Shown here piece by piece: positions 7,871 to 8,270 of a stretch of DNA of 17,358 bases (its first letter is position 1; each line of letters begins with the position of its first letter). The DNA lies in the UHGV virus genome UHGV-0105864; one strand, written 5' to 3'. The stretch comes from a virus. The notes below the pieces were generated by a model. That model was not told the origin of the DNA and did not search any database. It worked only from the letters and a program-made list of their open reading frames with translations. The translations under genes were made by a program, and so were the position numbers.

Positions 7871-8185
7871 GTTGACCTCCGATGAAACAACTTTGGAATT
7901 TTTTTTTATTACAAAGTGGTTTCCTTCCCCGCCAATTAGACGGGGATGGAAGAGCATTTATGAGCCTTTATGGACTCTGCTCGATCAGTTCTATTTAATT
8001 AATCTCTCAATTGAATGTAAGTATTCACATAAATCCTCCTACCTCTTGTGCAGCTTTCTTGAATATGGTGGCGGCTGCATAACTCCTATGGAATTGACTT
8101 TGGCGGTGACGCGCCGGGTGCTTATCTTCCGGTTGCCGTCGTGCAGCTGCACTTCACGTCACCCCAAAGCCAACTACTCTTTGGT

Positions 8186-8226
8186 TCCCGCATTTCGGCG
8201 GGACAATCCCATCAATGTTAAAGAGC
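8186..8226 (-). promoter_or_regulatory. nutL: nutL: boxA (GCTCTTTAA, complement of 8218-8226) and boxB hairpin (UCCCGC-CGAAAU-GCGGGA, 8186-8203)
   Basis: boxA matches the CGCTCTT(T)A consensus; an identical boxA plus boxB pair recurs downstream of cro; lies about 40-80 nt downstream of the predicted pL start. Confidence 0.65.
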
Positions 8227-8270
8227 CTGCCAATCTGTTCCGTTTGGCTTCCAGCGTCCTGCTGATGGCT

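What the first reader, a model, noticed from the sequence alone, without database searches (positions are those of the whole stretch)
7871..8270. Unusually long (about 400 nt) non-coding leader between pL/nutL and N, with a perfect 12-bp palindrome
From the predicted pL start (about 8265) to the N ATG (7870) is roughly 400 nt, against roughly 220 nt in lambda, and I found no - strand ORF with a ribosome-binding site in it. It contains the perfect palindrome GTGCAGCTGCAC (8141-8152) and an imperfect hairpin at 7920-7953 just upstream of the N ribosome-binding site, reminiscent of the RNase III-processed N-leader structure in lambda. In lambda this neighbourhood holds rexAB; here it appears to be structured RNA or regulatory DNA only.
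Basis: seen in the sequence. Interest (0 to 1): 0.5.

Follow-up and report, generated by a model that had tools for sequence, protein, structure and literature searches.

The report
Portable structured insert in N leader
The long untranslated stretch before this prophage's antiterminator gene N is an ordinary lambda-type leader plus a 208-base non-coding cassette, and this conserved, hairpin-rich cassette, which recurs in about 3% of complete E. coli genomes, probably tunes N expression, although its function is untested.

Summary
The window is a CUS-3-like (P22-like) E. coli prophage. The pL transcript starts at 8266 and the N ATG is at 7870, so the leader is 396 nt against 222 nt in lambda. 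The first 174 nt are a normal lambda-type leader:
- the conserved 5' end;
- nutL at 8226-8187, matched by nutR at 9318-9359;
- the long-range stem homologous to lambda's RNase III hairpin, 8173-8094, which contains the 12-bp palindrome.

All the extra length is one discrete 208-nt cassette (8092-7885). It sits between that stem and the N ribosome-binding site. It is absent from HK620, N7, phage 21 and Stx phages.

The cassette occurs in 159 of 5426 complete E. coli genomes, which is about 30% of leaders with this N type. It also occurs in leaders with P22-type and lambda-like nut/N specificities. It has no conserved reading frame on either strand. It keeps an invariant AGGAGGATTTATGTGAAT (ribosome-binding site, ATG, TGA) and three hairpins with compensatory changes.

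It is not the RNase III homologue and not a second nut site.

The most likely role is a cis-acting extension of the N mRNA leader. The mechanism is inferred, not shown. This is a new variant of a known kind, of moderate interest.

The parts
8273..8301 (-). pL promoter (-35 TTGACC, 17-nt spacer, -10 TAAATT).
   Evidence: Consensus scan, 9 of 12 matches. It lies 7 nt upstream of the conserved transcript start. Phage 21 and HK620 records annotate pL/OL at the aligned place.
8228..8266 (-). 5' end of the pL transcript, ATCAGCAGGACGCTGGAAGCCAAACGGAACAGATTGGCA. The same sequence is conserved in phi21/HK620-type and P22-type leaders. Its first 13 nt are identical to lambda.
8187..8226 (-). nutL: boxA GCTCTTTAAC plus the boxB hairpin CCCGC-CGAAAT-GCGGG.
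   Evidence: The same boxA/boxB pattern occurs only twice in the window: here, and downstream of cro at 9318-9359 (+), which is nutR. Zero matches are expected by chance. It aligns with the nutL annotated in HK620.
8094..8173 (-). Long-range stem-loop homologous to the RNase III-sensitive hairpin of the lambda N leader. The 5' arm is TTGGCTTTGGGGTGACG and the 3' arm is CGTCACCGCCAAAGTCAA.
   Evidence: Inverted repeats I5 and I6. It is present in the minimum-free-energy fold. The arms align with lambda's GGCTTTGGGGTGTGTG and CACACACCACCAAAGCT. It is conserved in all relatives, with 1-nt indels in phage 21, so it is non-coding. RNase III cleavage here is inferred, not tested.
8141..8152 (.). Perfect 12-bp palindrome GTGCAGCTGCAC, inside the loop region of the stem above.
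   Evidence: It is not conserved as a palindrome in N7 (GTGCAGATGCAC), an Stx1a phage (GTGCAGCTGCAA) or phage 21 (TTGCAGCTACAA).
7885..8092 (-). The extra 208-nt cassette. It is absent from the short-leader relatives. It is bounded by two copies of the sequence that precedes the N ribosome-binding site: CAAAGTCAATTCCATAGGAG and CAAAGTTGTTTCATCGGAGG.
   Evidence: BLAST break points and alignment. Leaders are 396 nt with it against 188 nt without. The exact junction is ambiguous by about 10 nt because of the flanking repeat.
8048..8080 (-). Invariant ATGCAGCCGCCA next to a degenerate ribosome-binding-site copy (13-codon ORF, MQPPPYSRKLHKR), plus hairpin H1 (UGCAGC 8079-8074 pairing with GCUGCA 8053-8048) with a hypervariable loop.
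   Evidence: (I8). The arms never vary, so they give no covariation evidence.
8023..8040 (-). Invariant 18-mer AGGAGGATTTATGTGAAT: a consensus Shine-Dalgarno, ATG 8030-8028, then TGA 8027-8025 (a start-stop). Alternatively GTG 8028-8026 opens a 3-9-codon ORF.
   Evidence: It is identical in all 63 cassette copies found by a profile search of 167 leaders and in 19 metagenome copies. The flanking blocks are unalignable between types.
7993..8002 (-). Invariant AU-rich TTAATTAAAT. It is predicted to be single-stranded.
7952..7983 (-). Hairpin H3. Its 3' arm, ATGCTCTTC, is what looks like a boxA.
   Evidence: The outer stem GAGCATC/GATGCTC becomes GAACATC/GATGTTC in L064. The inner stem changes on both sides between types. 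Cognate arms pair better than non-cognate arms.
7923..7949 (-).
   Evidence: I4. The stem is CCCCGTC/GGCGGGG in this type and CCCCTC/GAGGGG in the others. The loop is variable: TAATT, AATTC, AGTTC, ATGTC, TTAT, TATAT. Cognate arm duplexes are -18 to -24 kcal/mol against -8.5 to -11.4 for non-cognate arms. There is no U tract, so it is not an intrinsic terminator.
7886..7921 (-). Hairpin H5: AACCACUUUG pairs with CAAAGUUGUU, the sequence directly 5' of the N ribosome-binding site. Its loop holds an A-run of variable length.
   Evidence: I1. In P22-type leaders both arms differ (GATGACTCTGAAATG and CATTTCAAAGCCAT) yet still pair. Cognate arms give -11.5 to -15.7 kcal/mol, against -5.5 for window- and HK140-type 5' arms on P22-type 3' arms and -8.0 to -10.1 for the reverse combination. 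The one C.U mismatch is repaired (C to A) in both type a and type b backgrounds.
7868..7880 (-). N ribosome-binding site GGAGG and ATG.
   Evidence: It aligns with the annotated N starts of CUS-3, HK620 and N7.
7571..7870 (-). N gene. In this window it is broken by a 1-nt deletion near 7780, leaving a 39-aa product that ends at 7751.
   Evidence: Alignment with the N genes of CUS-3, S88 and phage 21. ORF list.
7857..8273 (+). 138-aa antisense ORF, judged spurious.
   Evidence: It is annotated only in UTI89. It is cut to 32-36 aa in other cassette types. It has no Pfam family.

Best explanation
The 396-nt leader is a standard lambda-type N leader with one extra piece. The standard part runs pL start, nutL, RNase III-type long-range stem, N ribosome-binding site. 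The extra piece is a self-contained 208-nt non-coding cassette inserted exactly between the stem's 3' arm and the N ribosome-binding site.

The cassette is transcribed from pL as part of the N mRNA 5' UTR. From 5' to 3' it carries:
- a degenerate copy of the N translation-initiation region;
- an invariant consensus Shine-Dalgarno plus AUG plus UGA (a start-stop or micro-ORF);
- an AU-rich single-stranded tract;
- three hairpins, the last of which uses the sequence just upstream of the N Shine-Dalgarno as its 3' arm.

The last hairpin recreates locally the 'stem abutting the ribosome-binding site' arrangement of short leaders.

My working model is that the cassette acts in cis on N expression. 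If RNase III cuts the upstream stem as it does in lambda, the N message would begin with this cassette. The high-affinity ribosome site and hairpins would then set the stability of the message, and would also set how strongly N translation stays coupled to the nutL/N autorepression loop.

Shown: the anatomy, the distribution, the absence of a conserved reading frame, and the conservation of hairpins through compensatory change. Inferred: transcription from pL only, RNase III processing, and any effect on N.
For: Discrete insertion: (188-nt leaders against 392-396-nt leaders with the same N).

The upstream 174 nt are a canonical leader:
- nutL pairs with nutR.
- The stem arms are homologous to lambda's.

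The cassette is exchanged horizontally as a unit:
- It occurs with HK620-type N, P22-type boxB and gene-24-like N, a lambda-like boxB and N, and ahead of an extra ORF.
- It occurs with several immunity types.
- It is in 159 of 5426 E. coli genomes, while 508 genomes carry this N type.

Constraint is fine-grained. Blocks of 10-18 nt are invariant, including the 18-mer in 63 of 63 copies and in the metagenome copies. These are interleaved with unalignable blocks, and length stays within 206-214 nt.

Structure:
- RNAalifold finds 5 pairs with changes on both sides.
- 99.4% of cells are paired, against 34-46% when partners are slid.
- The covariation score is 0.110 against 0.058 in shuffles, reached by 0 of 500 shuffles.
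- Cognate arms of H3, H4 and H5 pair better than non-cognate arms.
- The whole leader folds better than shuffles, z = -3.8.

No conserved ORF exists on either strand. There is no Pfam match and no Rfam match. Apart from pL itself at its upstream edge, the region has no promoter-like site on either strand, and none lies in the cassette.
Against: - Only three or four independent sequence types exist, and they recombine with each other. The covariation therefore rests on few events, and the tested structure was derived from the same sequences.
- The strand cannot be settled from G.U against A.C pairs. Antisense folds of H1, H3 and H5 are slightly more stable.
- Predicted accessibility of the N ribosome-binding site is the same with and without the cassette: 6-9 kcal/mol opening energy in both.
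- About 70% of leaders with the same N lack the cassette, so it is dispensable.
- In other prophages the same spot holds small protein genes followed by a hairpin, which fits an origin as a decayed gene insertion.
- In this window N itself is frameshifted, so any effect on N may be moot here.
- There are no expression data.
Confidence: 0.5

Rival explanations
1. The cassette is a decaying remnant of a small inserted gene (a moron) with its trailing hairpins. It would have no present function and persist only because it is young and spreads by recombination.
For: - The same insertion point holds intact small ORFs in other prophages, each taking over the old ribosome-binding-site copy and followed by a hairpin before N: 39-aa hydrophobic, 46-aa and about 70-aa ORFs.
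- The cassette starts with a ribosome-binding-site copy plus ATG, and contains a second strong ribosome-binding site plus ATG.
- One variant (L064) has a 52-codon ORF open from the first ATG.
- The cassette is dispensable in about 70% of leaders.
Against: - No frame is shared between types. Indels are not multiples of three, and stops fall at different places.
- Despite this, the 18-mer and other blocks are invariant in every copy seen, while neighbouring blocks are saturated with change.
- Stems change by compensation.
- Length is held within 206-214 nt. A drifting pseudogene should not show this pattern.
Confidence: 0.22
2. The cassette, or part of it, is cut out of the abundant early pL transcript by RNase III or RNase E. 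It would then act in trans as a small RNA on host or phage messages, as DicF is processed from a prophage operon.
For: - It lies next to a probable RNase III stem.
- It has an invariant AU-rich single-stranded tract flanked by stable hairpins.
- It moves independently of N specificity and of immunity type.
Against: - It has no terminator-type 3' end with a U tract.
- It matches no Rfam family.
- No candidate seed or target was identified.
- The last hairpin co-varies with the local N upstream sequence, which argues for a cis role.
Confidence: 0.1
3. The micro-ORFs are translated, and regulation works through the ribosome in the manner of a leader peptide. One is the 13-17-codon ORF starting MQPP(P/N), whose proline run could stall ribosomes. 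The other is the start-stop or 3-9-codon ORF.
For: - The ATGCAGCCGCCA start is nearly invariant: one copy has GTG and one has CTG for the first proline.
- Every variant keeps at least 13 codons open from it.
- The second site has a perfect, invariant ribosome-binding site.
Against: - The first ATG has a weak ribosome-binding site with short spacing (AGGCGxxATG) and sits in the H1 stem.
- An open frame of 13 codons is expected by chance about half the time.
- The peptide beyond MQPP is not conserved, and stop positions differ.
- One metagenome copy has lost the first ORF's stop.
Confidence: 0.1
4. The 7920-7953 hairpin and the preceding TGCTCTTC form a second nut site (boxA plus boxB).
For: TGCTCTT(C/T)C resembles boxA and is followed 3-4 nt later by a GC-rich hairpin with a 4-5-nt loop.
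Against: - The loop is not conserved; six versions were seen.
- The 'boxA' is the 3' arm of hairpin H3. In L064 its C changes to T together with the paired G changing to A.
- There is no partner site in the rightward operon, and the hairpin sequence is unique in the window.
- The genuine nutL/nutR pair is elsewhere.
Confidence: 0.03
5. The region encodes the 138-aa protein on the + strand (7857-8273).
For: It is an ATG-initiated ORF that spans the region. The equivalent ORF is annotated as a hypothetical protein in UTI89.
Against: - It is interrupted in other cassette types, leaving 32-36 aa.
- It is necessarily absent from short leaders.
- It has no Pfam family.
- No promoter lies ahead of it.
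- It overlaps nutL and the N start in antisense.
Confidence: 0.02

Closest known systems
Bacteriophage lambda N leader (pL transcript: nutL plus the RNase III-sensitive hairpin directly upstream of the N ribosome-binding site; N autoregulation relieved by RNase III). The lambda biology is from established literature as I recall it.
   Same: - Identical first 13 nt of the transcript.
- The same order: boxA, boxB, long-range stem, CCAAAG, Shine-Dalgarno, ATG.
- Homologous stem arms.
   Different: A 208-nt cassette lies between the stem's 3' arm and the N ribosome-binding site, so the stem no longer abuts the N start. A short cassette hairpin (H5) takes that place. The leader is 396 nt against 222 nt.
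Short N leaders of HK620, N7, phage 21 and Stx phages (188-190 nt).
   Same: The same pL start, nutL, stem and N ribosome-binding site. Identity with HK620, N7 and the Stx1a phage is 97-100% outside the cassette, and about 80% with phage 21.
   Different: They lack 8092-7885 entirely.
Small-gene insertions (morons) at the same site in other prophage N leaders: 39-aa hydrophobic peptide in L086/L088, 46-aa ORF in L098, about 70-aa ORF in L044.
   Same: The same insertion point, the same duplication of the initiation-region sequence, and a hairpin between the insert and N.
   Different: Those inserts have clear ORFs. The cassette has none conserved.
Start-stop or minimal ORFs, and ribosome-binding stabiliser elements in bacterial 5' UTRs (for example the E. 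coli start-stop sites seen by retapamulin ribosome profiling, and the STAB-SD element of Bacillus cryIIIA). Recalled from the literature and offered as a functional analogy only.
   Same: A strong Shine-Dalgarno and start codon in a leader that cannot make a protein.
   Different: There is no homology, and function here is untested.
put RNA elements of phage HK022, which are cis-acting stem-loops in early leaders (recalled from the literature).
   Same: Structured RNA in the pL leader acting without a dedicated ORF.
   Different: This phage has a normal N and nut system. The cassette lies after nutL. No sequence or structural similarity was detected or tested beyond the negative Rfam scan.

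Membership tests
Lambda-type N leader | pL-initiated transcript with the conserved 5' end. | tested here: met
   There is a promoter match 7 nt upstream. ATCAGCAGGACGC at 8266 is identical to lambda.
Lambda-type N leader | A nutL site (boxA plus boxB) with a matching nutR in the rightward operon. | tested here: met
   The pattern GCTCTTTAA..CCCGC..GCGGG occurs only at 8226-8187 (-) and 9318-9359 (+), with 0 matches expected by chance.
Lambda-type N leader | A long-range stem between nutL and the N start, with arms homologous to lambda's RNase III hairpin. | tested here: met
   Arms at 8173-8155 and 8111-8094. They align with the lambda arms.
Lambda-type N leader | Cleavage of that stem by RNase III, and N-dependent translational autorepression. 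| not testable with these tools
   This needs rnc mutants, primer extension and N'-'lacZ fusions.
nut site (for the 7949-7923 hairpin plus TGCTCTTC) | A boxB loop conserved within one specificity class. | tested here: not met
   Six different loops occur among cassette variants.
nut site (for the 7949-7923 hairpin plus TGCTCTTC) | A paired site in the other early operon. | tested here: not met
   The hairpin sequence is unique in the window, allowing up to 3 mismatches.
nut site (for the 7949-7923 hairpin plus TGCTCTTC) | A single-stranded boxA matching the consensus. | tested here: not met
   By my reading the match to TGCTCTTTA is 7-8 of 9. However, the element is the 3' arm of hairpin H3 and co-varies with its partner.
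Protein-coding gene | A reading frame conserved among homologues. | tested here: not met
   The longest sense and antisense ORFs differ by variant (29-64 and 30-78 codons) and lie in different frames. Only micro-ORFs of 3-17 codons recur. There is no Pfam hit.
Intrinsic terminator | A GC-rich hairpin followed by a U tract. | tested here: not met
   In 7871-8270 the terminator scan reports nothing on the - strand. Its only hit there is on the + strand at 8099-8118, inside the upstream stem, and nothing is reported within the cassette on either strand. No hairpin in the cassette has a U tract.
Described RNA family (Rfam 15) | A match to a curated covariance model. | tested here: not met
   The best hits have E values of 0.36-10 and lie far below the gathering scores.
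Conserved structured RNA element (generic) | Helices kept through compensatory substitutions. | tested here: met
   Five pairs change on both sides. The covariation score is above all 500 shuffles and above the slid controls, and cognate arms are preferred over non-cognate arms. The caveat is that there are few independent lineages.

The most novel reading that the evidence does not exclude
The cassette is a portable 'plug-in' regulatory RNA that lambdoid phages swap independently of N/nut specificity and immunity. Under this reading, its invariant ribosome-loading start-stop site and its hairpins either rewire the N autoregulatory circuit or are released from the earliest pL transcript as a trans-acting RNA. 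Rewiring would mean uncoupling N translation from nutL-tethered repression and RNase III control, which would change the speed or threshold of the lysis-lysogeny decision.
Probability: 0.15. Interest if true: 0.6.

Novelty: new variant of a known kind. Interest (0 to 1): 0.35.

Why it matters
N is the first gene expressed from pL, and its level sets the pace of early lambdoid development. In lambda its leader is a classic case of layered post-transcriptional control involving nutL, N and RNase III.

About a third of E. coli prophages with this N type carry an exchangeable, constrained 208-nt leader module. This gives a natural allele pair, with and without the cassette, for testing how leader architecture tunes N.

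The survey also shows that the 20 nt just upstream of the N ribosome-binding site is a recurrent insertion point for both small genes and non-coding cassettes. On the practical side, it flags a spurious 'hypothetical protein' annotation on the opposite strand.

Tried and rejected
- Rfam, both strands, permissive threshold: nothing credible. Also nothing in two other long leaders.
- Promoter and terminator scan: pL is the only promoter-like site in the region. There is no promoter or terminator inside the cassette on either strand, and the only terminator-like hit in the region lies on the + strand in the upstream stem.
- + strand 138-aa ORF: not conserved, no Pfam match.
- Second nut site: rejected.
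- Strand assignment from wobble pairs and from strand-specific fold energies: ambiguous.
- Thermodynamic test of whether the cassette occludes or frees the N ribosome-binding site, for the full leader and for a leader starting after the upstream stem: no difference from short leaders.
- Search for more divergent copies:
  - Species-representative genomes gave 0 hits in two scans.
  - Metagenomes gave 19 hits, all of the known types.
  - Among 50,697 phage records, only CUS-3 and HK140 carry it.
- Literature searches on N-leader RNAs, prophage small RNAs and the CUS-3/HK620 boundary sequences found nothing describing this element.
- CsrA-type GGA motifs and a Rho-utilisation site were considered by eye. 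They were dropped because the motifs are not conserved between types.
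Full report
**What the window is.** The 901 bases around the finding are 98.7% identical to phage CUS-3, a P22-like Lederbergvirus of E. coli K1. In CUS-3 the whole cI-N spacer is annotated only as 'bsq5; boundary sequence'. The layout in the window is as follows:

- cI/c2-type repressor at 9044-8394 (-), with its terminator at 8395-8376;
- pL, with -35 at 8301-8296 and -10 at 8278-8273;
- N ATG at 7870;
- cro at 9125-9310 (+).

**Checking the observation.** On the - strand the sequence from 8266 reads ATCAGCAGGACGC. 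These are the same 13 bases that begin the lambda pL transcript. This fixes the transcript start independently of the promoter match. The leader is therefore 396 nt, against 222 nt in lambda.

The palindrome GTGCAGCTGCAC is at 8141-8152. The imperfect hairpin reported at 7920-7953 is present (I4). No sizeable - strand ORF exists.

- A 138-aa ORF lies on the + strand at 7857-8273.
- A perfect Shine-Dalgarno plus ATG lies at 8040-8028, followed at once by TGA.

**Where the extra length comes from.** I aligned the leader with relatives that have the same or a related N.

- HK620, N7, an Stx1a phage and phage 21 have 188-190-nt leaders. Those of HK620, N7 and the Stx1a phage match the window at 97-100%, and phage 21's at about 80%, except for one gap.
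- In these short forms the sequence runs ...CGCCAAAGTCAAT|CATCGGAGGTCAACATG.
- In the window, 208 nt (8092-7885) sit at the bar.
- The insert is flanked by two versions of the same about 20-nt sequence, CAAAGTCAATTCCATAGGAG and CAAAGTTGTTTCATCGGAGG. In P22-type leaders the repeat is a 14-nt exact CAAAGCCATTTCAC.

**The first 174 nt are a canonical N leader.**

- boxA plus boxB at 8226-8187 recur only once more in the window, at 9318-9359 just after cro. These are nutL and nutR. nutL coincides with HK620's annotated nutL.
- Next comes a long-range stem at 8173-8094. Its arms, TTGGCTTTGGGGTGACG and CGTCACCGCCAAAGTCAA (I5/I6), align with lambda's GGCTTTGGGGTGTGTG and CACACACCACCAAAGCT.
- In lambda these arms form the RNase III-sensitive hairpin directly upstream of the N ribosome-binding site. 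That statement comes from my knowledge of the lambda literature.
- The 12-bp palindrome lies inside this stem. It is broken in N7, the Stx1a phage and phage 21, so it is probably only part of the local RNA fold.
- Phage 21 differs from the window in this stem by three 1-nt indels, which rules out coding.

So the lambda RNase III counterpart is here, not at 7920-7953. rexB and rexA (35825-37114) lie between cI and OL3, upstream of pL.

**The cassette elsewhere.** BLAST of the cassette finds it in 159 of 5426 complete E. coli genomes. There are 168 places, all chromosomal, in three identity classes of about 97-99%, 78% and 71%, and always full length. Among 50,697 phage records only CUS-3 and HK140 carry it. 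The HK620-type N start occurs in 508 genomes, so roughly 30% of such leaders are of the long kind.

A scan of IMG/VR for the 18-mer AGGAGGATTTATGTGAAT gave 65 relevant loci. These include leaders with different specificities:
- the P22 boxB GCGCTGACAAAGCGC with a gene-24-type N (L018, L047, L065, L079);
- a lambda-like GAAAA-loop boxB with a different N (L064);
- one case where the cassette precedes an extra ORF of about 70 aa before N (L044).

The immunity regions also differ. The cassette is therefore exchanged as a unit, independently of N specificity and immunity.

I also sampled leaders through their conserved 5' end, without reference to the cassette. In that sample of 167 leaders, a profile search found the cassette in 63. 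Every one of the 63 carried the intact 18-mer. Metagenomes added 19 copies of the same types. Species-representative genomes gave none.

**Coding or not.** Variants are mosaics of three or four block types that recombine at invariant blocks.

- From the invariant ATGCAGCCGCCA, the open frame is 13 codons in the window type, 17 in the HK140 type and 52 in L064.
- From the GTG in the 18-mer, it is 9, 3 or 7 codons.
- The longest sense and antisense ORFs differ in length and frame between types.
- Indels between types are 1, 2, 5 and 6 nt.
- The + strand 138-aa ORF is annotated only in UTI89, is cut to 32-36 aa in other types, and has no Pfam family.

I conclude there is no conserved protein.

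**Structure.** The whole leader folds better than shuffles, z = -3.8. The antisense strand also does, z = -4.2. RNAalifold on 19 distinct sequences predicts helices in which 5 pairs change on both sides. Counting on a fixed structure gave these results:

| Measure | Observed | Control |
|---|---|---|
| Cells paired | 99.4% | 96.3% in shuffles; 34-46% when partners are slid |
| Covariation score | 0.110 | 0.058 in shuffles (0 of 500 reach the observed value) |
| Pairs with a change on both sides | 5 | reached by 6 of 500 shuffles |

Specific cases:
- H3: GAGCATC/GATGCTC becomes GAACATC/GATGTTC in L064. This also shows that the boxA-like TGCTCTT is a helix arm.
- H5: the 3' arm is the sequence immediately upstream of the N Shine-Dalgarno. 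The 5' arm differs between HK620-type and P22-type leaders so as to match it.

Cognate arm pairs are more stable than non-cognate ones in all three helices.

Caveats: there are few independent lineages, and the structure was derived from these same sequences. G.U against A.C pairs do not settle the strand, because antisense folds are slightly more stable. I assign the sense strand for two reasons. pL is the only promoter-like site in the region. Several predicted pairs are also G.U on the sense strand.

**What it is not.**
- It is not a terminator, because there is no U tract.
- It is not a second nut site. The loops are variable, the 'boxA' is paired, and no partner site exists.
- It is not a known RNA family.

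**Context from other leaders.** N leaders in the sample range from 183 to 645 nt. The spot between the CACCNCCAAAG arm and the N Shine-Dalgarno is a recurrent insertion point. Other prophages carry there a 39-aa hydrophobic peptide gene (L086, L088) or a 46-aa ORF (L098). Each uses the old initiation-region copy and is followed by a hairpin before N. This supports two readings: that the cassette originated as such an insertion, and that the site tolerates or favours additions.

**Mechanism.** Shown: a discrete, exchangeable, non-coding, hairpin-rich cassette with an invariant ribosome-binding start-stop site, lying in the N 5' UTR.

Inferred: it acts in cis on N expression. If the upstream stem is cut by RNase III as in lambda, the N message would start with the cassette. 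Its strong ribosome site and hairpins could then stabilise the message. They could also loosen the coupling of N translation to the nutL-tethered repression complex. H5 would keep a stem next to the N ribosome-binding site, as short leaders have.

A thermodynamic test found no difference in predicted accessibility of the N ribosome-binding site between long and short leaders. The model therefore has no computational support beyond the anatomy. I give the cis-regulatory reading 0.5, a functionless gene remnant 0.22, and a processed trans-acting RNA and ribosome-mediated micro-ORF control 0.1 each.

**Novelty and verdict.** I found no description of this element in Rfam, in the phage annotations, or in the searched literature. 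It is a new variant within a well-known kind, the lambdoid N leader. It is moderately interesting as a natural allele pair for studying N control, but it is not a surprise to a specialist.

In this window N carries a 1-nt deletion and would make only a 39-aa fragment. This prophage copy may therefore be N-defective whatever the cassette does.

Noticed in passing
window 7751-7870 (-), deletion near 7780: N is frameshifted by a 1-nt deletion (GCAAG-ACAGC against GCAAGAACAGC in CUS-3 and S88). This leaves a 39-aa product that keeps the arginine-rich motif but loses the rest. The same truncated allele occurs in IMG/VR locus L033. It could be a defective prophage or a sequencing error in an A-rich run.
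   Followed up: partly
window 7857-8273 (+): The 138-aa antisense ORF across the leader is annotated as a hypothetical protein (WP_011478232.1) in UTI89. It is not conserved in other cassette types and has no Pfam match, so it is probably a spurious gene call.
   Followed up: yes
L106 leader nt 83-335 (also L035, L046, L162): Other prophages carry a different GC-rich insertion of about 250 nt, between boxB and the long-range stem of the N leader. It has no conserved ORF that I could see and no Rfam match. Combined with the cassette it gives 642-645-nt leaders. It remains unexplained.
   Followed up: partly
L088 leader nt 253-372; L086 nt 239-358; L098 nt 271-411; L044 downstream of the cassette: Small ORFs are inserted at exactly the same spot, between the CACCNCCAAAG arm and the N ribosome-binding site. 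They are a 39-aa hydrophobic peptide (MLDIMTNPILGG...WMWERKNK), a 46-aa ORF and an ORF of about 70 aa. Each is followed by a hairpin before N.
   Followed up: no
window 9318-9359 (+) and ORF 9332-9712: nutR overlaps the first 28 nt of the cII-like ORF as it is called in CUS-3 (381 nt). Other records call a shorter cII (294-366 nt), so the real start is probably downstream of nutR.
   Followed up: no
window 7901-7909: The A-run in the loop of hairpin H5 varies between 7 and 9 A among otherwise identical cassette copies. The window has 9 and CUS-3 has 7.
   Followed up: no
window 8290-8305 and 8211-8226: A 16-nt direct repeat (81% identity) links the boxA region of nutL (GCTCTTTAACATTGAT) with the sequence over the pL -35 (GCTCTTGACCATTAAT). 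It is probably chance.
   Followed up: no
L064 (IMG/VR), just upstream of N: The CCAAAG...GGAGGT...ATG initiation unit is repeated three times in tandem ahead of N. This suggests repeated rounds of insertion or duplication at this site.
   Followed up: no
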